Of a stretch of DNA of 51,075 nucleotides, positions 1 to 48,949 are shown piece after piece. The notes beneath the pieces were generated by a model. That model saw nothing but the letters and a program-made list of their open reading frames with translations, did no database searches and was not told the origin of the DNA. The position numbers and the translations under genes were made by a program. Within the stretch, counting starts at the first letter, position 1; each line of letters opens with the position of its first letter. The stretch lies in the sequence record PZ871099.1. One strand, written 5' to 3'. Source of the DNA: a phage.

Positions 1-528
1 ATGGCTAAAAATGTTGAGCCTGCTGTAAAGGCATTAAATTTCAAAGAGTTATACAATAAAACTTATGGCGATATTGTTACGCTAAACAACCGCCACAAGT
101 ACACGCCGGAACAGGTTTTTGATATGGCGATCCGCTATTTCACTTGGGCCGAAGAGAATCACATCCAGGCGGCTGAAACTGCTTCCTTTCAGGGTGACGT
201 GTACGAGAGCAGAGTTTACAAGCCTCGCGTTTTCACGGTTAACGGATTCAGCTTGTATCTCGGCGTGACTGAGGCAGCCGTAAGCAAATGGCGTAAAGAG
301 CCTGGATTCTGCGATGTGATGGAGTTTGTTGATAAAGTAATTTACGAGCAAAAATTCCAGCTTGCGGCAAATAACATGATTAATGCTGGATTCATCGGTA
401 AAGAGATCGGAGTAGAGAAGCCAGCAACAGTGAGCGTTGAAGCGAGCGCGGCAGCTAATGCAAGCATTGACGCAGTAACTGCCGATGAGGTGAAAGAGGC
501 TGTGATTGATATTCTGGAGCAACTTTAA
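1..528 (+). CDS. terS: terminase small subunit
   Basis: 175 aa; HTH-like segment GFSLYLGVTEAAVSKWRK; stop overlaps start of the large terminase; RBS AAGGAGG lies at the window end, consistent with permuted ends. Confidence 0.7.
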   Translation: MAKNVEPAVKALNFKELYNKTYGDIVTLNNRHKYTPEQVFDMAIRYFTWAEENHIQAAETASFQGDVYESRVYKPRVFTVNGFSLYLGVTEAAVSKWRKEPGFCDVMEFVDKVIYEQKFQLAANNMINAGFIGKEIGVEKPATVSVEASAAANASIDAVTADEVKEAVIDILEQL

Positions 529-2096
529 TGATCATATGGGAAGATTTGACGGCGGCGCAAAAGCGAGCCATTAAAGAAATCAGTGAGCATTCATTCGAAA
601 AGATGATCAGAATCTGGTTCCAATTATTGCAGGGGCAAAAATTCCAGAGCAACTGGCATTTTAGCTTATTGTGCAGTGAGGTAGAGAAGATCATCAATGG
701 AGAGTCGCAGAATGTGATTTTCAACATTACGCCAGGTAGCGGCAAGACTGAGATTTTCTCGATCCACATGTCACCCTACGCGTCATTGAAAAGCCGGAAA
801 GTGAGAAACCTTAACCTTTCGTTTAGTGATGGCCTTGTGCAGCAAAACAGCAACCGGATAAAGGAGATTATTGGTTCTCCTGAGTGGCAAGAGCTATGGC
901 CTGGAAAACTGGCAAAGGCGAGCGCTAAAGATCTGATAGTCACCGAAGGCGGCAAGGTTAAATTGCAGGTTAACTCACGTTCTATTGGCGGCCAGGTAAC
1001 AGGTTTGCGTGGCGGCTATATGGATGATGGTTTTACTGGTATGCTGGTTCTTGACGATCCAGACAAGCCGGATGATATGCTTTCTAAGGTCAAGCGCGAG
1101 GCTATTCACATGCGGTTAAAAAACACAGTGCGATCGCGTCGAATGAAAGACACCACGCCAATTGTTATGGTGCAACAGCGACTACACGTTAATGATTCCA
1201 CCTGGTTCATGCTTAATGGCGGGATGGGTGGTATTGAGTTTAAAGTCGTGAGCATTCCGGCGCTGGTTACAAAAGAATACCGCGAAACACTTCCTGATTG
1301 GTTGAAGCCTGAATTTGATCGTGATGTTCTGTCAAGTAAGCCAGTGATGATAGATGGCGTTGCTCATTATTCATTTTGGCCTGCGAAGGAAAGCGCGGAG
1401 GAGTTGCTTGCATTGCGCAATGCAGATCCTTACACGTTCGCCAGCCAATACCAACAGCAACCAATCGCGCTTGGCGGGAACGTGTTTAAAACAGAGTGGT
1501 TCCAGTATTACGGCAGCGGCGAAAAGTGCGCACTACCAAAACCGGATCGCTTTGAATACACATTTATTACTGGAGATACCGCGCAGAAGGCCGGAGAGCT
1601 TAACGACTATTCGGTTTTTTGTTATTGGGGGATGTATAAGAATCGCGTTTACTTCATTGATGGCATTCGCGGAAAGTGGGAAGCGCCGGATCTTGAATTA
1701 AATTTTATTGCCTTCGTTAACCAGTGCTGGAAGCGCAATAAGGAGTGTGGCAGCTTGCGACGTATCCACATTGAGGATAAGGCCAGCGGCACGGGTTTGA
1801 TTCAGGGGGCCAAAAAGAAGATCCCGATTGATATAAATCCCGTTCAGCGAAGCAATGACAAGGTGACGCGAGCAATGGACGCCGCGCCAGTAATGAGGGC
1901 CGGACGTGTGGCGCTGCCAGAAAATCACCCCATGCTGCCTGAGATACTGGCAGAGGTTGCAGCATTCACTTTTGATGATTCTCATCCCCATGATGATATT
2001 GTCGATAATATAGTTGATGCTGTTAACGTCGAAATGAATTTGGCAGATGATCCGGTAGCAAGGATGAAAAAGCTGGCAGGTCTACGCAATAAATAG
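528..2096 (+). CDS. terL: terminase large subunit
   Basis: 522 aa; Walker A-like ITPGSGKTE; acidic C-terminal nuclease-like region; sits between terS and portal. Confidence 0.85.
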   Translation: MIIWEDLTAAQKRAIKEISEHSFEKMIRIWFQLLQGQKFQSNWHFSLLCSEVEKIINGESQNVIFNITPGSGKTEIFSIHMSPYASLKSRKVRNLNLSFSDGLVQQNSNRIKEIIGSPEWQELWPGKLAKASAKDLIVTEGGKVKLQVNSRSIGGQVTGLRGGYMDDGFTGMLVLDDPDKPDDMLSKVKREAIHMRLKNTVRSRRMKDTTPIVMVQQRLHVNDSTWFMLNGGMGGIEFKVVSIPALVTKEYRETLPDWLKPEFDRDVLSSKPVMIDGVAHYSFWPAKESAEELLALRNADPYTFASQYQQQPIALGGNVFKTEWFQYYGSGEKCALPKPDRFEYTFITGDTAQKAGELNDYSVFCYWGMYKNRVYFIDGIRGKWEAPDLELNFIAFVNQCWKRNKECGSLRRIHIEDKASGTGLIQGAKKKIPIDINPVQRSNDKVTRAMDAAPVMRAGRVALPENHPMLPEILAEVAAFTFDDSHPHDDIVDNIVDAVNVEMNLADDPVARMKKLAGLRNK

Positions 2097-2113
2097 CACT
2101 AATTGCTAAAAAG
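2092..2113 (+). promoter_or_regulatory. conserved intergenic motif copy, degenerate (AATAGCACTAATTGCTAAAAAG)
   Basis: Overlaps terL stop; followed by TATATAAT and a terminator hairpin. Confidence 0.5.
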
Positions 2114-21787: not shown

Positions 21788-21806
21788 TTAGCAAAAAGTG
21801 CTACTT
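21788..21806 (-). promoter_or_regulatory. conserved intergenic motif copy, degenerate
   Basis: Minus strand reads AGTAGCACTTTTTGCTAAAC, then TATAGT, upstream of the lipoprotein gene. Confidence 0.5.
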
Positions 21807-21879
21807 GTTATTTTTTGTTTTACGGTGTTATCGGATTTAAGACGGCGTAAATTTAGCGCAAATTTTATCCAACATAAGA

Positions 21880-22170
21880 ACAATAAATAATCAATAAAAT
21901 AGGTATATACATATAAAATCAATAGTTTATTTATTTATGTATGTATATTTGTTTTTTCTTGTTATCTGTGTTTCTTGTGGTTTTGGTTGTTTGTGGTGAT
22001 TTTTCTTTCTGAGTATCTGTATGTGCCATCATTCATGTGTATGTATATAATCCGGCGTATATGAGAGAACAAGGGAACAAGAAAAATAACACATATTAAT
22101 CATTAACTTACGCGTCAAATTTGTTTTATTGCCATCTGAGAACGTTTAGAAAACAGAAAAAACAAAACAA
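21880..22170. repeat. GT/AT-rich non-coding module, copy A
   Basis: Shares TTATTTATTTAT, GTTTTTTCTTGTT, TGGTTTTGGTTGTTTGTGGTG, TGTATGTATATAAT, AAAAATAACA with copy B. Confidence 0.6.
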
Positions 22171-28254: not shown

Positions 28255-28731
28255 TTAGCTATTCGTGCTGTTATCACCTTTGTAGAATCTTCCGCCTGGT
28301 TCGTAGTCTGAATTTTTGACTACGCGCAACATTTCGTATTTGTCGCAACGGGTAGTAAGAGGCTTGCCGTTAGAATCAAACCGCAGATCTGGACGACAAA
28401 ACGAGGCGCGGTATCCTTTGCATCCATTATATTTGTAGTCGTTATGCACCTTTTGTGCTCCAGCGGCTGAAATCATACCACGCTTTCGCCATTGGTTAAC
28501 TACTTGCTGAGATACGCGTAGACGTCGAGCCATAGCAGGAACACCGCCGTAATACTCGATCAGAATGTCAAGGCGAGATTTCAGGCTTGCTTTTACCTCA
28601 TCTCGCAGGATAAGAAATCCGGTTCGGTGTTTTCGTGGCTTTTTGTCTTTACCTCGTCGCGTTCCGTTGTTACCGTTAATAATGCGCTTGTCGATCTCAC
28701 CCGTAGATACTGCAATTCGTGCATCTTTCAT
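28255..28731 (-). CDS. HTH DNA-binding protein (putative transcription regulator)
   Basis: HTH-like segment MARRLRVSQQVVNQWRKRGMIS; Cys-containing C-terminus. Confidence 0.45.
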   Translation of the reverse strand: MKDARIAVSTGEIDKRIINGNNGTRRGKDKKPRKHRTGFLILRDEVKASLKSRLDILIEYYGGVPAMARRLRVSQQVVNQWRKRGMISAAGAQKVHNDYKYNGCKGYRASFCRPDLRFDSNGKPLTTRCDKYEMLRVVKNSDYEPGGRFYKGDNSTNS

Positions 28732-32302: not shown

Positions 32303-32321
32303 TAGCACTTTTTGTTAAAAC
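32301..32321 (+). promoter_or_regulatory. conserved intergenic motif copy
   Basis: Followed by hairpin GCCCGGCCTAGTGTCGGGC and CATAAT. Confidence 0.6.
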
Positions 32322-32377
32322 GCCCGGCCTAGTGTCGGGCATAATTATTTCAACGAAGCAAACATGAGGAAATAAAA

Positions 32378-36074: not shown

Positions 36075-37651
36075 CCCAGCAGTATTGGATTTACAAAAAT
36101 AACACCATTAATCACACAAACATAATTTCTCTCTTCCAGCATTGGCAGCAAGTGCCCTTCTATCCTCTTCATTACGCCAGCTTGACCAACGAAAGGTTTT
36201 ACCTTTCTCGCTGATTCGTACAGGGCGCGGATATTCAGAATCCCTTTATTAGCCTTGCCGTGTCTAGTGATCAATTCAATCAATTTACCCATTTCAGCAT
36301 CATCACCAGCATAACCAGAAGCATTGGCGGCGCTAATGTATGTTTTGCTCAATTCCTGAAACATGATCAGCGCCTCTTGCATTGTTTCCACGTCGATCTC
36401 TTTCGACTTCTGCGGGTATCCAGCAGGATTAAACCAGTTGCGGATAACATGCAGGACGGAAGCAAGCCTGATCACCTGTTTATCCATTTTACCCAGCGCA
36501 CCGCGTAACATTGTATGAGAATACTTTCCGCCGTCTGCAAGATGCGGTTCCATATCCTGGCGAGCAATGTTGAGCACTCGCATAGCTGAACGGCTTATTT
36601 TCAGCGATACATTTGATTCGCTCATGATGTTATGCACCAATTGATAATATTGGGCCTTCAATTCAGAATCCACCGCCTCATAGGTAGAATCACCATTTTC
36701 ATCAATGAATGAGCGACGGCCTAAGAATGATTCCTCGCGGACCAACAAAAAGCGCTCACTAACACCGATACCGCGCGATCCAGCGTCCATGATTCCGCTT
36801 ATCGTTTCATCCTGGGCTATAACGCTCATACATCCAAGCGCGCGAAAACTCATGTTATTGTCAGCATTAGCACGGGCAATTGATACGTGACCATTATCCC
36901 ACGCCTTAAGCACTAGCTCACTGTTAGTCTTCCTTTCGCTATTTGCATAGGTCAAGCCTAACAAACTGTTAATACTTGTTGCTTCGTCAGATATTACGGC
37001 AAAGTTACCTTGCTTGTTGTTGATTTTCGCCAGGCCTTCTGGAGTTGTATCTGAAACAGGGAAAGTTATATCACACATCTTTTCCAGCTTCTCCTCCAGA
37101 TCCTCTTTTTCCTGGTATAGAGATTCCATATCAGCGCCTGATCTTTCGCTTTTCATCTCCTTTGCAAGACCTGCCAACTTTGCCTGTATTTTCTTTCTTT
37201 CCTTGCGGCGTTGCTCGTTGATCTTCTCAACTTCCGCAATCATCGGAGCAATAGCCATACTGTTGATCGCAGATTTACCAGTTGACGGCGGCTGGCTTGT
37301 AACGACGTAAAGCGCAGTCGGCTGATCGGTCCCGTGATAGTCAACCGTAAAGCGTCCAAGCATGGCGGCAGAAATGCAGCCGATAAAGTGCATGTAAGCC
37401 GATGATTCAGGGAATTGAACGGATCGCGCAATACTGCGTGATAACTTTCCGACAACATCAATATCATTACCAAGAGAAATTACGGGGTAGCGATCGTGAC
37501 CGCTATTTACATCTTTCACTTCGCCCCAAAAGCTGGACGACTGGCGATAGCCGTTAGCCTGAATTGATACGCGAACTGGCGAAAGGTTCTGGCTTTCAGC
37601 CATAGCGATTATTTGCTGTGGAGTTAATTTGTTCGTTTCTAATGAAAACAT
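36071..37651 (-). CDS. P-loop NTPase of unknown function
   Basis: 526 aa; Walker A QPPSTGKSA, Walker B-like FAVISDEA; family not assignable by eye. Confidence 0.5.
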   Translation of the reverse strand: MFSLETNKLTPQQIIAMAESQNLSPVRVSIQANGYRQSSSFWGEVKDVNSGHDRYPVISLGNDIDVVGKLSRSIARSVQFPESSAYMHFIGCISAAMLGRFTVDYHGTDQPTALYVVTSQPPSTGKSAINSMAIAPMIAEVEKINEQRRKERKKIQAKLAGLAKEMKSERSGADMESLYQEKEDLEEKLEKMCDITFPVSDTTPEGLAKINNKQGNFAVISDEATSINSLLGLTYANSERKTNSELVLKAWDNGHVSIARANADNNMSFRALGCMSVIAQDETISGIMDAGSRGIGVSERFLLVREESFLGRRSFIDENGDSTYEAVDSELKAQYYQLVHNIMSESNVSLKISRSAMRVLNIARQDMEPHLADGGKYSHTMLRGALGKMDKQVIRLASVLHVIRNWFNPAGYPQKSKEIDVETMQEALIMFQELSKTYISAANASGYAGDDAEMGKLIELITRHGKANKGILNIRALYESARKVKPFVGQAGVMKRIEGHLLPMLEERNYVCVINGVIFVNPILLG

Positions 37652-39830: not shown

Positions 39831-40043
39831 TCATTTCTTATTTTTCAGCTTAAATTTATGACCTGGAACACCAGCGCCAATATAGCCATCGTTGTATTCC
39901 ATCAAATAAAGGTGAAGACCATTATCTGAAATTACATGAGGATCTTCTTTGAGATTTCCCATTAGTGGATATTCTTTTCCGCGCGTAAATTTCCAAATTG
40001 AGTTATAAGTTTCTACGCATTTAAGTTTTAATTGCTTTGCCAT
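39831..40043 (-). CDS. hypothetical protein
   Basis: 70 aa. Confidence 0.3.
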   Translation of the reverse strand: MAKQLKLKCVETYNSIWKFTRGKEYPLMGNLKEDPHVISDNGLHLYLMEYNDGYIGAGVPGHKFKLKNKK

Positions 40044-41097: not shown

Positions 41098-41310
41098 TTA
41101 TCGTAAAGATTTAAAGACGTATAGTTTATTGCGGTAACTATATATCCGCATTGTTATTTCCCGCAGTGCAATATATTCCTTCCTGTTTTCCGGCATCCTG
41201 GCGAGCAATAACAGGCAGTATTTATAAGCGCGGTCAAGATTCCTTTCCGTGCCCCTGCAATATCCCTTGTTGCGCCTGGAGCGGTACAGCAATAACAATT
41301 TCTTGAACAT
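41098..41310 (-). CDS. hypothetical basic protein
   Basis: Start trimmed to MFKKLLLL, 2 nt after upstream stop. Confidence 0.25.
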   Translation of the reverse strand: MFKKLLLLYRSRRNKGYCRGTERNLDRAYKYCLLLLARMPENRKEYIALREITMRIYSYRNKLYVFKSLR

Positions 41311-41311
41311 T

Positions 41312-41521
41312 TCAGATACGCCCATACAGATCACAGACTTCGTTGATAAAATTGCTTTGCGCCCCTTTGTTGTCACGCTCAAGAATTGCGCGGCATTCAA
41401 ACTTATGATTATGCACGATGACTACAACCATGTTTTCAGGCATTGAGCGGTTATAGCGTTGCGCATCACTGATTGAAACGTCCATACCCATTTCATGTGC
41501 CTTCTTGATCACATCCAACAT
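41312..41521 (-). CDS. hypothetical protein (paralog of 41509..41775)
   Basis: Shares FINEVCDLYG vs FINDVCLLQ with neighbour; RBS AGGAGA. Confidence 0.35.
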   Translation of the reverse strand: MLDVIKKAHEMGMDVSISDAQRYNRSMPENMVVVIVHNHKFECRAILERDNKGAQSNFINEVCDLYGRI

Positions 41522-41775
41522 TTTTTCTTCTCCTGCAATAAGCAAACATCATTGATAAAATCAGCACGGCCCTTAATGTTGCTGATGTGGAACGTCTTTT
41601 CAGCGTACAGGCCATCACCTTCAATCACGATCATTACGCGAGTCGGTTTATTCACGGGCGCACATGAAAAGAGTGGGCGCGCCGGAAGAAATTTAGTAGC
41701 CACATCCAGGTTAGCCCTGGCGGCCCTGCAAAACGCCTCCGCCAGATCCAAATCATTTTCGGTAATCACCGCCAT
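41509..41775 (-). CDS. hypothetical protein (paralog of 41312..41521)
   Basis: 88 aa. Confidence 0.35.
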   Translation of the reverse strand: MAVITENDLDLAEAFCRAARANLDVATKFLPARPLFSCAPVNKPTRVMIVIEGDGLYAEKTFHISNIKGRADFINDVCLLQEKKKCWM

Positions 41776-42047
41776 TACTTCTTGATCTCCTCACTGATAA
41801 ATTTCAGCACCTGACGCAAGAAAACCTCGTTGTTGATAGTCGCTGGCAATTCTTCTTTCACTTCTTGCGGCAGATAGATATTGCCGTGCCAGGTCAAGCA
41901 ATCGTAGTTGATACGATAAGAGCAAAGCCACTCGCAATCGTTATCTGCTTCCCAAATGCAGAGTTGCAGAACATCGCCGAAGTCTTCAACAGTCAGATCC
42001 AGACCGTGACGCTTAGCGAAGTTGAAAGTGGTTTTGCTGATGTTCAT
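41775..42047 (-). CDS. hypothetical protein
   Basis: 90 aa; first gene after the 42106 motif copy. Confidence 0.35.
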   Translation of the reverse strand: MNISKTTFNFAKRHGLDLTVEDFGDVLQLCIWEADNDCEWLCSYRINYDCLTWHGNIYLPQEVKEELPATINNEVFLRQVLKFISEEIKK

Positions 42048-42105
42048 TGCTATCTCCTGAGCGGTTCGTTTCGATGTGTGTAATGTACCCGATCAGACGG
42101 CCTGA

Positions 42106-42127
42106 GTTTTAACAAAAAGTGCTATTT
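42106..42127 (-). promoter_or_regulatory. conserved intergenic motif copy
   Basis: 22 nt then TACATT, then leader ACACACATCGAAACGAA. Confidence 0.6.
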
Positions 42128-42149
42128 GACGGTTAGCGCCAGGATTGCG

Positions 42150-42250
42150 ATCGAAATAATCAAAAGTAATCATTCGTAATCAAATCACGTCAAAATGATG
42201 ATTGCCTTTGCAAATTTGATGAGAAAAGTAATCACGTTTAATCATTGGTT
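42150..42250. repeat. iteron-like array of TAATCA repeats
   Basis: AATAATCAAAAGTAATCATTCGTAATCAAATCACG ... AAAGTAATCACGTTTAATCATTGG; five copies spaced about 10 bp. Confidence 0.5.
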
Positions 42251-42399
42251 GCAGGGGAGATAGTGAAACCCTCCCCTCTTGCCTCACTTTTCCGCCTGGC
42301 TGTCAGTGGTTGTTGTCTTTTGTTCACCCCTGTTACCGATTTCAGGCGGCGTGTTTCCGCGCGGTTTTCCGGTGTAGCGAAAACGGAAAAAACAAAGAA

Positions 42400-42680
42400 A
42401 ATCCTCTATAATACATTGAAAATAAAGATTATTTATTTATATATATCTATAATGTTTTCTTTTTGTTCTCACTGTTACAGTGCTTTTTGTTGGTTATGGT
42501 GTGGTTGTGTGTGGGCATATATGGATAGTTGCGCGCGCGGCGGATTGCATATGTATATATACTTTTTCCGGCGGATTGCGTTAACAGCGTGAACAGAAAA
42601 ATAACAGCCCTGAAATCAACAACTTGCGCATGATTTTGTAGTTTTTCGATATTGGTAACGTTTTGAATACAACAAAAACA
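42400..42680. repeat. GT/AT-rich non-coding module, copy B
   Basis: Same blocks in the same order as copy A; spurious ORF 42245..42592 overlaps it. Confidence 0.6.
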
Positions 42681-42708
42681 TTGACACGCACCAAATAGCT
42701 TTTATAAT
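42681..42708 (+). promoter_or_regulatory. canonical sigma70 promoter (TTGACA-16-TATAAT)
   Basis: Read directly; start of the plus-strand early cluster; track ATG at 42707 lies in the -10 box so the gene start is placed at 42740. Confidence 0.65.
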
Positions 42709-42739
42709 GAGCCAACAGTCAACAACTGGAGGAAAGGAA

Positions 42740-43204
42740 ATGGAACAGAAAACCACTAAGGACTATTGCGATTGGCTTCGCGAGCTTGGTCGCCGCCTGG
42801 CTAGTGGCGATATTGAAGAGTATAAAATGTCACTAATTGACCTGGCCGGAATGTTAAGCGGTGACGACTGCTACAAGATCACGCGCAGTTCATCCTACAG
42901 CCGGACCATTATCAACCGCGTTCCAGAAGTAAGGGCCGCAGGTCGGGTAAGCATCAAGGTAGAGGAAACGGAAGATGATAAATTTTACGTTTTCCGCATG
43001 GTCCGCGAATCGAAAAGGAAAATCATCACACCCGAAGAATTGCCAGCCATCAAGGCAAGGGCGATCAAAAAGTTTGCCGATCGCTTACTGGCAGCAATCC
43101 CGAACATCGTGGACCTGGAAGGGGATAAACTGGCTGGAGCTTGTGAGGGCGTAAGCCGCTACCAGGATATGATCCGAGAAATCATCAAAGAGGAGGAGCA
43201 ATAA
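42740..43204 (+). CDS. hypothetical early protein
   Basis: RBS GGAGGAAAGG before ATG 42740. Confidence 0.35.
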   Translation: MEQKTTKDYCDWLRELGRRLASGDIEEYKMSLIDLAGMLSGDDCYKITRSSSYSRTIINRVPEVRAAGRVSIKVEETEDDKFYVFRMVRESKRKIITPEELPAIKARAIKKFADRLLAAIPNIVDLEGDKLAGACEGVSRYQDMIREIIKEEEQ

Positions 43205-43464
43205 TGAAAAAGGCATTAATCGGCGTTTTGGCGGCAATGACACTCCTGACCGGATGCGAAAAGGCATCAGAATCAACTGTTGTCGTAGGCGTGGAGTCAG
43301 ATTTCAAAGTCGGCCGCCTGTTCACTGTTGACGGATGCACAGCATACAGATTCTATGATAACGGTCGCGCGATCTATTACACCAACTGCAAAGGCGCAAC
43401 GGATAGCACGTACAACAGCGGAAAGAACGTAATGCACCAGCAAGTCACAACAGATATTAAATAG
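43204..43464 (+). CDS. lipoprotein (putative)
   Basis: Signal peptide with lipobox LTGC (MKKALIGVLAAMTLLTGCEK). Confidence 0.5.
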   Translation: MKKALIGVLAAMTLLTGCEKASESTVVVGVESDFKVGRLFTVDGCTAYRFYDNGRAIYYTNCKGATDSTYNSGKNVMHQQVTTDIK

Positions 43465-43480
43465 CACTTTTTGTTAAAAC
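43460..43480 (+). promoter_or_regulatory. conserved intergenic motif copy
   Basis: Stop TAG embedded; hairpin GCCAGGCgcaaaGCCTGGC; CATAAT; leader CATCGAAACGA. Confidence 0.6.
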
Positions 43481-43536
43481 GCCAGGCGCAAAGCCTGGCA
43501 TAATAGCCTCATCGAAACGAGATTGAGGAAACAAAA

Positions 43537-47658: not shown

Positions 47659-47674
47659 CACGAATTGCTAAACG
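47654..47674 (+). promoter_or_regulatory. conserved intergenic motif copy, GAATTG variant
   Basis: AATAGCACGAATTGCTAAAC, hairpin GCGGGGttatcgGCCCCGC, then TATAAT. Confidence 0.55.
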
Positions 47675-47728
47675 CGGGGTTATCGGCCCCGCTATAATGC
47701 TTGCATCAACAATCAAGAGGAAATCACA

Positions 47729-48658: not shown

Positions 48659-48949
48659 ATGGCAAACAAAACTTACCGCAAACTACTGGTTAACGCTTTT
48701 GAAAACATCGCGCAGTGTAACAAGTGGAACGACTCTAAACACTCGCCAGTCACAATGAAGCGCGCCGGATTCAAAAATGCTCGTTCATGGGCGAGAGCTT
48801 TCGCAGCTTGCTATATGCCGGATGGTGGACTAGGAGCGATGAACGATTTTTTGATCAACATGATAGAGGAAGCTGCGCGAGAGGATCGACCGCTGACACA
48901 GCGAGATTTTGATGATTTCGCGCGCGATGAGCTTTACTATCTGGGCTAA
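48659..48949 (+). CDS. hypothetical protein
   Basis: 96 aa. Confidence 0.3.
   Translation: MANKTYRKLLVNAFENIAQCNKWNDSKHSPVTMKRAGFKNARSWARAFAACYMPDGGLGAMNDFLINMIEEAAREDRPLTQRDFDDFARDELYYLG

What the first reader, a model, noticed from the sequence alone, without database searches (positions are those of the whole stretch)
42150..42250. Iteron-like array of TAATCA repeats at helical-turn spacing
Five TAATCA copies at roughly 10-bp spacing (near 42157, 42166, 42176, 42229, 42239) plus a TGATGATTG inverted element lie in the gap between the divergent early clusters. This is the layout expected for cooperative binding of a regulator or initiator, so it is a candidate operator or replication origin. 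No canonical DnaA box was seen.
Basis: seen in the sequence. Interest (0 to 1): 0.55.

Follow-up and report, generated by a model that had tools for sequence, protein, structure and literature searches.

The report
Packaging-site repeat array of T1-like phage
The five evenly spaced TAATCA repeats are real and non-random, but they sit right beside the point where phages of this family cut their DNA to start filling capsids, so they are most likely the recognition site for the packaging enzyme, not a replication origin or gene switch.

Summary
TAATCA occurs at 42157, 42167, 42177, 42229 and 42239 (spacings 10, 10, 52, 10), with an extra AATCA at 42183 and an inverted TGATTG at 42199. No simulated genome reached such a cluster.

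The window is a T1-like coliphage (Drexlerviridae, Warwickvirus). The array lies in the 692-bp gap between divergent operons, inside a 175-bp cassette (42126-42300) that ends in a conserved G-rich block.

That block coincides with mapped or deposited genome ends in relatives:
- the MSK PhageTerm peak and the SU57 end lie within 17 bp of each other;
- the XY3 record opens at 42262|42263;
- haarsle and PHB17 end within about 12 bp of the same block;
- T1 position 1 lies inside its own array.

TGATT/AATCA arrays at this position occur in many, not all, lineages of the family. The AATCA cores are invariant in 12 close relatives while the spacers vary.

Best reading (confidence 0.55): this is the recognition half of the pac site, bound by the P22-gp3-type small terminase, with cutting about 10-25 bp to the right. 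TerS binding is inferred, not shown. Rivals are an operator for the leftward promoter (0.2) and a replication origin (0.07).

It is a new member of a known kind. Side finding: the family's 21-nt repeats match the host marbox.

The parts
42157..42162 (+). TAATCA copy 1
   Evidence: AATCA core invariant in 12 type-A sequences
42167..42172 (+). TAATCA copy 2
42177..42182 (+). TAATCA copy 3
42183..42187 (+). extra, degenerate AATCA copy abutting copy 3; its last base varies in relatives
   Evidence: the segment 42190-42217 is invariant in 12 sequences
42202..42213 (.). TTGC-N4-GCAA small palindrome in the 52-bp spacer; counterpart of the TTGCA..TGCAA palindromes in T1, PaulSarasin and MSK
42229..42234 (+). 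TAATCA copy 4 (CAATCA in three relatives; AATCA core kept)
42239..42244 (+). TAATCA copy 5, the copy next to the G-rich block; every lineage examined has a TGATTR or TAATCA copy at this position
42254..42269 (+). Conserved G-rich block GGGGAGATAGTGAAAC; putative pac cleavage zone
   Evidence: The XY3 record opens at 42262|42263. The haarsle and PHB17 records end within about 12 bp of the homologous block. The MSK PhageTerm peak and the SU57 end lie just past the analogous purine-rich block. The sequence is conserved across lineages. The apparent hairpin is not significant.
42126..42300 (.). The whole pac cassette (array plus G-rich block), bounded on the left by the 21-nt repeat and on the right by the start of the AT-rich hub
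   Evidence: It is absent from the paralogous hub at 21.8-22.1 kb. It is present at 95% identity or more in 61 GenBank records. It is replaced by other motif sets in other lineages. Mosaic breakpoints fall at about 42300.
42107..42125 (-). T1-family 21-nt repeat (marbox-like) of the leftward promoter; left boundary of the cassette
1..528 (+). terS, small terminase of the P22 gp3 family; proposed reader of the array
   Evidence: allele distribution; hypervariable segment at residues 84-100
528..2096 (+). terL, large terminase; proposed nuclease that cuts at the G-rich block

Best explanation
The TAATCA array is the recognition part of this phage's pac site, the place where headful DNA packaging starts.

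Proposed mechanism:
1. Subunits of the ring-shaped small terminase (TerS, gene 1-528, P22 gp3 family) bind the AATCA cores. All the cores face one side of the helix: three at 42157-42182 and two at 42229-42244, with an inverted TGATTG and a TTGC/GCAA palindrome between them.
2. This holds the large terminase over the adjacent conserved block GGGGAGATAGTGAAAC (42254-42269), where the first cut is made.
3. DNA is then packaged rightward, towards 42740 and on to terS/terL, in successive headfuls.

Shown: the array is real, unique in the genome and conserved at its cores; genome ends of relatives map beside the homologous arrays; the phage has a gp3-type TerS.

Inferred: that TerS is the protein that binds, that the cut in this phage is at 42254-42269, and that the DNA wraps or bends.
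For: 1. Position of genome ends in relatives.
- T1 RefSeq position 1, the start of the annotated 2.8-kb terminal repeat, lies in the homologous gap inside T1's own TGATTG/TTGCA array, about 55 nt left of its G-rich block.
- The SU57 paper places the pac site of T1 and T1-like phages in this untranslated region.
- The MSK paper reports a forward PhageTerm peak at 36,862. That maps into the homologous gap about 45 bp right of MSK's array.
- It lies within 17 bp of the independently determined SU57 record end.
- The type-A record XY3 opens at 42262|42263, 18 bp right of the fifth TAATCA. haarsle and PHB17 end within about 12 bp of the same block.

2. The cassette 42126-42300 is the one part that distinguishes this gap from its paralogue at 21.8-22.1 kb.

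3. Occurrence across the family.
- TGATT/AATCA arrays of 5-9 copies per 120 bp, 8.4-9.8 kb upstream of terS, are the densest such cluster in 16 of 26 loci.
- Every lineage examined has one copy next to the G-rich block.

4. Conservation. None of the 22 variable columns among 12 type-A sequences falls in the 25 AATCA core positions; about 3 would be expected, P about 0.03.

5. TerS.
- It belongs to the P22 gp3 family.
- Exactly 61 GenBank records carry this TerS at 95% identity or more, with none between 80 and 95%. Exactly 61 carry this cassette, and the two lists match.
- TerS is far more diverged between lineages (49-74% identity) than TerL (65-93%), most of all in residues 84-100.
Against: - No binding data exist.
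- The 61/61 co-occurrence is confounded by common descent: all 61 are Warwickvirus, and atuna is 97-99% identical genome-wide.
- The AATCA/TGATT core is shared by lineages whose TerS variable segments differ. So there is no clean specificity co-variation, and a conserved host or other phage protein could be the binder.
- In several lineages TGATT counts at pac are low (2-4) and other motifs dominate there: TATTCC/GGAATA, TTGCA palindromes, TGTCA.
- The TATTCC palindromes occupy the position of TAATCA copies 1-3 and are shared by four different TerS types. So the left sub-array may serve another function.
- Some deposited record starts may have been set by homology to T1, not from read data (one search shows that practice).
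- In P22 itself the pac site lies inside the terS gene, not 9 kb away (established knowledge).
- A review notes that most TerS proteins bind DNA weakly and that the wrapping model is disputed.
Confidence: 0.55

Rival explanations
1. The array is an upstream regulatory site (operator or activator site) for the leftward promoter. A phage or host DNA-binding protein, for example an OmpR/PhoB-type response regulator that reads direct repeats one helical turn apart, would bind the array centred about -81 to -168. It would tune transcription of the leftward early or middle operon.
For: - The array lies directly upstream of the leftward promoter element (21-nt repeat at 42107-42125, -10 TACATT at 42082-42087).
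- In lineages B, B', T1 and L016 the same position holds a symmetric set, TATTCC x2 then GGAATA x2, that looks like an operator and does not track the TerS type.
- Three of the five copies read GTAAT-N5-GTAAT, one base off the CpxR box GTAAA-N5-GTAAA (recalled from memory, not tested).
Against: - Twenty other copies of the same promoter element in this genome have 0-2 AATCA/TGATT in their upstream 150 bp. The paralogous hub at 21.8 kb has no array.
- No regulator gene that co-varies with the motif type was found within the 10-kb flanks. The one candidate failed in L012 and L014.
- Neither flanking gene has a recognisable DNA-binding domain.
- This reading does not explain why genome ends map beside the arrays.
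Confidence: 0.2
2. The array is a set of replication-origin iterons, bound by a phage initiator, for example the Cro/YdaS-like HTH protein encoded next to the primase at 28255-28731. Binding would melt the AT-rich block at 42400-42452.
For: - An AT-rich block lies about 160 bp to the right, flanked by TGTTnnC direct repeats and inverted AACA repeats.
- The site is a switch point of divergent transcription with a local minimum of cumulative GC skew near 42 kb.
- The T1-family origin is unknown.
Against: - The AT-rich hub exists twice (21.8 and 42.3 kb), and only the TGTT/AACA repeats are shared. The TAATCA array belongs to the copy-specific cassette.
- The motif is 5-6 bp, not 17-22 bp.
- There is no DnaA box in the gap and no initiator gene nearby.
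- GC skew here simply follows gene orientation.
Confidence: 0.07
3. The array is an architectural element only. Phased short A-tracts and AATCA steps would give a bent or easily bent stretch, possibly bound by host IHF, Fis or HU, that helps whatever complex forms here without sequence-specific reading of TAATCA. Alternatively it is a neutral remnant of 10-bp tandem duplication.
For: - TRF sees a period-10 unit TAATCAAAAG.
- A-runs precede most copies.
- In pSf-1 the homologous TAATCAAGTGATTA fits the IHF consensus (read). An IHF consensus site is present in the gap at 42614.
Against: - None of the window's copies fits WATCAANNNNTTR.
- The cores are invariant while the spacers vary. That argues for base-specific reading and against simple duplication decay.
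- The motif recurs in lineages whose arrays are not alignable.
Confidence: 0.1

Closest known systems
Phage P1 pac site (recalled from memory: Sternberg and Coulby; Skorupski et al.)
   Same: Both use clusters of a hexamer on either side of a central region: TGATCA/G 4+3 in P1, TAATCA (= TGATTA) 3+2 here. In both the motif is read by the small packaging subunit, the cut lies close by and is spread over about a helical turn, and the phage packages by headfuls.
   Different: - The P1 hexamers carry GATC and are regulated by Dam methylation; TAATCA has no GATC.
- P1 cuts between the two clusters. Here the ends map to the right of both clusters.
- P1 PacA is unrelated to gp3-type TerS.
- No binding has been shown here.
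Bacillus phage SPP1 pac (pacL / pacC / pacR) (recalled from memory: Chai et al. 1995; footprinting discussed in PMC9611059)
   Same: Both have TerS-binding boxes on the non-encapsidated side of the cut, short phased repeats with bendable DNA, and unidirectional packaging from the cut.
   Different: SPP1 G1P has an N-terminal HTH and a different fold family. A right-hand (pacR-like) element has not been identified here. The review questions how specific the SPP1 footprints were.
Lambda cosB (R3-I1-R2-R1) (recalled from memory)
   Same: Both have several TerS (gpNu1) binding sites in mixed orientation next to the nicking site, with a bend between them.
   Different: Lambda is a cos phage with precise staggered nicks, 16-bp R sites and an essential IHF site. 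Here packaging is headful, the motif is 5-6 bp and no IHF consensus lies inside the array.
P22 pac site, same TerS family (gp3); the 22-bp site is quoted in PMC11447400
   Same: The TerS proteins are homologous: residues 34-144 align to gp3 23-133 with E = 2e-15. Both phages package by headfuls from one pac site.
   Different: P22 pac is a single asymmetric 22-bp site inside gene 3. Here the candidate site is a repeat array about 8.9 kb upstream of terS in a non-coding gap.
T1-family pac region as described so far (T1 RefSeq NC_005833; SU57, MSK and TLS papers)
   Same: It is the same intergenic gap and the same direction of packaging.
   Different: The literature places pac only roughly, by restriction mapping, a PhageTerm peak, or a guess from P22 similarity (AGATTT in TLS). 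None of the papers read here describes the TGATT/AATCA arrays or the conserved G-rich block.

Membership tests
pac site with small-terminase recognition repeats | Lies at or beside the physical end produced by the first packaging cut | tested here: met
   The test is indirect, through relatives. The MSK PhageTerm peak and the SU57 end lie within 17 bp of each other just right of the homologous array. T1 position 1 is inside its array. The ends of the XY3, haarsle and PHB17 records fall at the G-rich block. This phage's own ends were not measured.
pac site with small-terminase recognition repeats | The phage packages by the headful mechanism with TerS and TerL | tested here: met
   TerS is of the gp3 family and terL follows at 528-2096. 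Headful packaging of T1, TLS, SU57 and MSK is reported.
pac site with small-terminase recognition repeats | Unique site in the genome | tested here: met
   It is the only 100-bp stretch with 5 or more AATCA/TGATT: 7 copies, next best 4.
pac site with small-terminase recognition repeats | Recognition sequence changes together with TerS specificity | tested here: inconclusive
   The 61 records with this TerS are the 61 records with this cassette, but all are one genus. Across lineages the motif sets differ and the TerS segment 84-100 differs, yet the TGATT core is shared.
pac site with small-terminase recognition repeats | TerS binds the repeats specifically, and the site is required in cis for packaging | not testable with these tools
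   This needs EMSA or footprinting and a plasmid-transduction or mutant-phage assay.
Iteron-type replication origin | Several 17-22 bp direct repeats bound by an initiator that is usually encoded next to them | tested here: not met
   The motif core is 5-6 bp. The flanking genes are phrog_6147 and DUF7174, with no initiator or DNA-binding domain.
Iteron-type replication origin | Adjacent AT-rich unwinding element and host-factor sites (DnaA, IHF) | tested here: inconclusive
   The AT-rich block at 42400-42452 is about 160 bp away, but it belongs to a hub that is duplicated at 21.8 kb without the array. There is no DnaA box. One IHF consensus site lies at 42614.
Iteron-type replication origin | Replication starts here | not testable with these tools
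   This needs marker-frequency or 2D-gel mapping.
Operator array at divergent promoters | Sites overlap or abut core promoter elements | tested here: not met
   The array is 437 bp or more from the rightward consensus promoter at 42681-42708. It lies 31-119 bp beyond the leftward 21-nt promoter element. No sigma-70-like promoter lies inside the array.
Operator array at divergent promoters | A cognate regulator gene is present and co-varies with the operator type | tested here: inconclusive
   None was found within the 10-kb flanks. Genes further away were not compared across lineages, for example the HTH protein at 28255-28731.

The most novel reading that the evidence does not exclude
The helically phased AATCA/TGATT array would be the sequence code of the T1-family pac site, read by successive subunits of a gp3-type small-terminase ring as the DNA bends around it. 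It sits in a swappable 175-bp cassette inserted into one of two paralogous AT-rich hubs. If so, this is the first sequence-level definition of a Drexlerviridae pac site, and a natural case in which the disputed wrap-around model of TerS recognition is written into the DNA as one-turn-spaced half-sites.
Probability: 0.35. Interest if true: 0.6.

Novelty: new member of a known kind. Interest (0 to 1): 0.45.

Why it matters
T1-like phages are common laboratory and industrial contaminants, are generalized transducers, and are used in phage collections and therapy work. Their pac site has so far been placed only roughly, and in TLS it was guessed from a 6-bp similarity to P22.

A defined recognition array with a nearby cut zone would have four uses:
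- genomes could be opened at the true end;
- packaging specificity and transduction could be predicted;
- pac could be moved onto plasmids or removed;
- how gp3-type small terminases read DNA could be tested.

It also warns that iteron-like arrays in phage intergenic gaps need not be origins.

Tried and rejected
- Rfam scan of 41500-43300: only a chance snoRNA-like match far below threshold.
- Sigma-70 promoter and terminator scan: nothing inside the array. My own reading of TAATCA as a -10 hexamer fails at 2 of 6 positions.
- Scan of viral contigs for TAATCA-N4-TAATCA-N4-TAATCA: 120 or more unrelated tandem repeats, uninformative.
- Hairpin at 42251-42282: folding energy no better than shuffles, z = -0.65. 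The block is conserved as sequence without compensatory changes, so the structure idea was dropped.
- Search for a phage gene that co-occurs with the motif type. Window genes present only in type A (41098-41545, 39831-40043) are small proteins with no family match in either library, where scanned. The 41509-41775 gene is missing from type-A locus L006. A 77-aa ORF shared by L010, T1 and L016 is absent from type-B loci L012 and L014.
- atuna as a diverged background for testing TerS/array linkage: it is 97-99% identical overall, so it gives no test.
- IHF and DnaA consensus: none inside the array.
- Literature check that P22 gp3 pac-specificity mutations (recalled as E81K) fall in the segment aligned to the hypervariable TerS stretch: no paper found. 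It stays a lead from memory only.
- Contigs carrying the neighbouring gene: the long contigs are arbitrary circular permutations and say nothing about ends.
- One search was an aborted script.

Full report
**What the window is.** The window is a complete-length T1-like coliphage that starts at terS. The 3 kb around the finding is 96-98% identical to Escherichia phages vB_EcoS-95, FritzSarasin, tonnikala and others. These are classified as Drexlerviridae, Tempevirinae, Warwickvirus.

The finding lies in a 692-bp non-coding gap (42048-42739).
- To the left is a leftward operon whose first gene is 41775-42047 (phrog_6147).
- To the right is a rightward operon whose first gene is 42740-43204 (DUF7174).
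- The rightward operon is served by a perfect TTGACA-16-TATAAT promoter at 42681-42708.

**The observation.**
- TAATCA occurs on the + strand at 42157, 42167, 42177, 42229 and 42239.
- Spacings are 10, 10, 52 and 10 bp, so all copies face one side of the helix. Random placement gives that phasing 0.06% of the time.
- No non-low-complexity hexamer reached five copies per 100 bp in 200 Markov simulations.
- This is the only spot in the genome with 5 or more AATCA/TGATT per 100 bp: 7 copies against a mean of 0.5.

**Anatomy of the gap.** From left to right:
1. A -10-like TACATT (42082-42087, minus strand). About 19 nt upstream of it lies one of 21 copies of the T1-family 21-nt repeat ATAGCACnnnTTGnTAAAA (42107-42125, minus strand). 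The TLS paper describes this repeat as of unknown function.
2. A 175-bp stretch (42126-42300) holding the TAATCA array and then the block GGGGAGATAGTGAAAC (42254-42269).
3. A roughly 320-bp complex element: TGTTnnC x3 at 10-bp spacing, an AT-rich core, more TGTT repeats, and inverted AACA repeats.
4. The consensus rightward promoter.

Element 3 has a paralogue in the other divergent gap of the genome (21790-22110), in the same orientation. That copy also follows a minus-strand 21-nt repeat and also precedes a good sigma-70 promoter. The AT-rich core is found in 205 phage records, often twice per record.

The TAATCA array plus G-rich block is exactly what the 42-kb copy has and the 21-kb copy lacks.

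**Relatives.** The cassette 42126-42300 is present at 95% identity or more in 61 GenBank records.

Among 12 sequences of this type, 22 of 175 columns vary. None falls in the 25 AATCA core positions of the five copies; about 3 would be expected, P about 0.03. One variable column falls on the first T of copy 4. The spacers next to the copies do vary.

In other lineages the stretch between the 21-nt repeat and the G-rich block has a similar length but is not alignable. Each lineage carries its own short repeats:
- TATTCC x2 then GGAATA x2 in pSf-1-like phages, BEBK14, T1 and L016;
- TTGCA..TGCAA palindromes in PaulSarasin, T1 and MSK;
- TGTCA repeats in L016 and L046.

Every lineage examined has a TGATT(G/A) or TAATCA copy just before the G-rich block. 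It is a palindrome, TGATTAATCA, in BEBK14 and TTAATCAagTGATTAA in pSf-1.

In a wider sample, arrays of 5-9 TGATT/AATCA per 120 bp lying 8.4-9.8 kb upstream of terS were the densest such cluster in 16 of 26 loci. One locus (L216) has 12 copies in 175 bp.

**The key context: genome ends.**
- T1 RefSeq position 1 starts the annotated 2.8-kb terminal repeat. It lies in the homologous gap, inside T1's TGATTG/TTGCA array, about 55 nt left of its G-rich block.
- The SU57 paper states that the pac site of T1 and T1-like phages lies in this untranslated region. It chose the SU57 end from PhageTerm plus a coverage step.
- The MSK paper reports a forward PhageTerm peak at 36,862, P = 1.6e-9. In the MSK record this is about 45 bp right of its motif array, just past the purine-rich block.
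- The SU57 record ends 17 bp from the equivalent position.
- Among Tempevirinae, the type-A record XY3 is opened at ...GGGGAGATA|GTGAAACC..., which is 42262|42263. haarsle ends just before GAGGGG, and PHB17 ends at GGGGAATC.
- Some authors orient genomes on T1 by homology, so the three record ends count for less than the two PhageTerm results.

Together they place the first packaging cut at or just right of the G-rich block, with packaging going rightward.

**The small terminase.**
- Gene 1-528 encodes a TerS of the P22 gp3 family: Pfam GP3_package, PHROG 606, and E = 2e-15 to PDB 3P9A over residues 34-144.
- In GenBank, 61 records carry it at 95% identity or more. None falls between 80 and 95%, and the next group is at about 72%.
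- The 60 listed accessions match the cassette list except for one on each side, and each list has one unlisted record.
- TerL is much less diverged: 91-93% identity to BEBK14 and pSf-1, where TerS is 66-74%.
- The least conserved core segment of TerS is residues 84-100 (…LYLGVTEAAVSKWRK…). It aligns to gp3 residues 73-89.

This fits a TerS-pac specificity module, but it is not proof. The 61 phages are one genus, and atuna is 97-99% identical genome-wide apart from swapped blocks. The TGATT core is also shared by lineages with different TerS segments.

**Interpretation.** The best-supported reading is that the array is the recognition half of pac. TerS subunits would bind the phased AATCA cores, TerL would cut in the adjacent G-rich block, and packaging would run rightward.
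- Shown: the array is real, unique and conserved at its cores; it sits beside mapped ends of relatives; analogous arrays recur in many lineages of the family.
- Inferred: the identity of the binding protein, the exact cut in this phage, and bending or wrapping. A review notes that the wrap model is disputed.
- Confidence: 0.55.

**Rivals.**
- *Upstream regulatory site for the leftward promoter (0.2).* In favour: its position, and the operator-like TATTCC/GGAATA set that occupies the place of TAATCA copies 1-3 in four lineages with different TerS types. Against: 20 other copies of the promoter element lack any such array, and no co-varying regulator gene was found.
- *Replication origin (0.07).* Against: the motif is short, there is no DnaA box and no nearby initiator gene, and the AT-rich hub is duplicated without the array. 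GC skew only mirrors gene orientation. If an origin is in this gap, the shared TGTT/AACA repeats and AT-rich core are better candidates than TAATCA.
- *Purely architectural or host-factor element, or duplication remnant (0.1).* Against: cores are invariant while spacers vary.

**Comparison with known systems.** The layout works like P1 pac (hexamer clusters TGATCA/G, 4+3), SPP1 pacL and lambda cosB; these comparisons are recalled from memory. It differs from P22, the closest TerS relative, whose pac is a single 22-bp site inside gene 3 (quoted).

The rough location of T1-family pac is already in the literature. The motif array and the conserved cut block are not described in the papers read here. 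I therefore file it as a new member of a known kind.

**Side observation worth following.**
- All 20 perfect matches in the window to the published marbox definition gcannwwntgnnaaa are the T1-family 21-nt repeats. About 1.7 matches are expected by chance.
- Most are followed about 19 nt later by a -10-like hexamer. That places the marbox core near -40 in forward orientation, which is the class II geometry given.
- No MarA homologue was found in the phage.
- The TLS paper lists the function of these repeats as an open question.
- Dependence of T1-family promoters on host Rob, MarA or SoxS would be a testable and possibly new idea.

Noticed in passing
window, 20 sites, e.g. 42108-42122 (-), 43464-43478 (+), 2096-2110 (+): The T1-family 21-nt repeat (21 copies) matches the published E. 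coli marbox definition gcannwwntgnnaaa perfectly at 20 sites, against 1.7 expected. Most are followed about 19 nt later by a -10-like hexamer, which puts the marbox core near -40 in forward orientation (class II geometry). No MarA homologue was found in the phage. The repeats' function is listed as an open question in the 2024 TLS paper. Possible dependence on host Rob, MarA or SoxS.
   Followed up: partly
window 21790-22110 and 42300-42610: Two paralogous complex elements of about 320 bp lie in the two divergent gaps, in the same orientation. Each has TGTTnnC direct repeats about 10 bp apart, a GGCGGCGT-like box, an AT-rich core (…AAAGATTATTTATTTATATATATC), more TGTT repeats, inverted AACA repeats, and then a strong sigma-70 promoter. 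The AT-rich core is conserved in 205 phage records, often twice per record. They are candidates for origins or early-promoter enhancers.
   Followed up: partly
window 42321-42328: One of the TGTTnnC repeats reads TGTTCACC, which I recall as the phage P4 type I ori/crr iteron bound by the alpha protein. The T1 record annotates its primase as similar to P4-type alpha proteins. This may be coincidence.
   Followed up: no
relatives: L005 (pSf-1) 1295-1336; L003 (BEBK14) 1294-1337; T1 record 48763-48802; L016: At the position of TAATCA copies 1-3, four other lineages carry a symmetric set: TATTCC x2 (9 bp apart) then GGAATA x2. This set is shared by phages with different TerS variable segments, so it probably serves a different binder than terminase.
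   Followed up: partly
window 1-528, TerS residues 84-100: The least conserved core segment of TerS across lineages (LYLGVTEAAVSKWRK here) aligns to P22 gp3 residues 73-89. I recall that P22 pac-specificity (high-transducing) mutations map near residue 81, but I could not confirm this in the library.
   Followed up: partly
window 41098-41545 (-): FritzSarasin annotates one 140-aa gene here. In the window the same DNA reads as two ORFs in different frames (41312-41521 and about 41098-41320). The upstream ORF is paralogous to the neighbouring 88-aa gene (shared …FINDVC/FINEVC tail). This is either an annotation error or a frameshift difference.
   Followed up: partly
window, spacers after the 21-nt repeats, e.g. 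43480-43498, 32321-32340, 47674-47692: The roughly 19-nt spacer between many 21-nt repeats and their -10 hexamers is a GC-rich inverted repeat (e.g. GCCAGGCGCAAAGCCTGGC). Terminator-like hairpins therefore sit inside the promoters.
   Followed up: no
window 21917-21929 and 42614-42626: Each of the two AT-rich hubs contains one exact IHF consensus site (WATCAANNNNTTR). There are only six in the whole window.
   Followed up: no
GenBank records MG0656xx: About 20 records labelled 'Campylobacter phage', with host Campylobacter jejuni, are T1-like Drexlerviridae close to coliphages. The neighbouring 90-aa gene is found in 1022 sample blocks of public assemblies. This suggests widespread contamination or mislabelling.
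   Followed up: no
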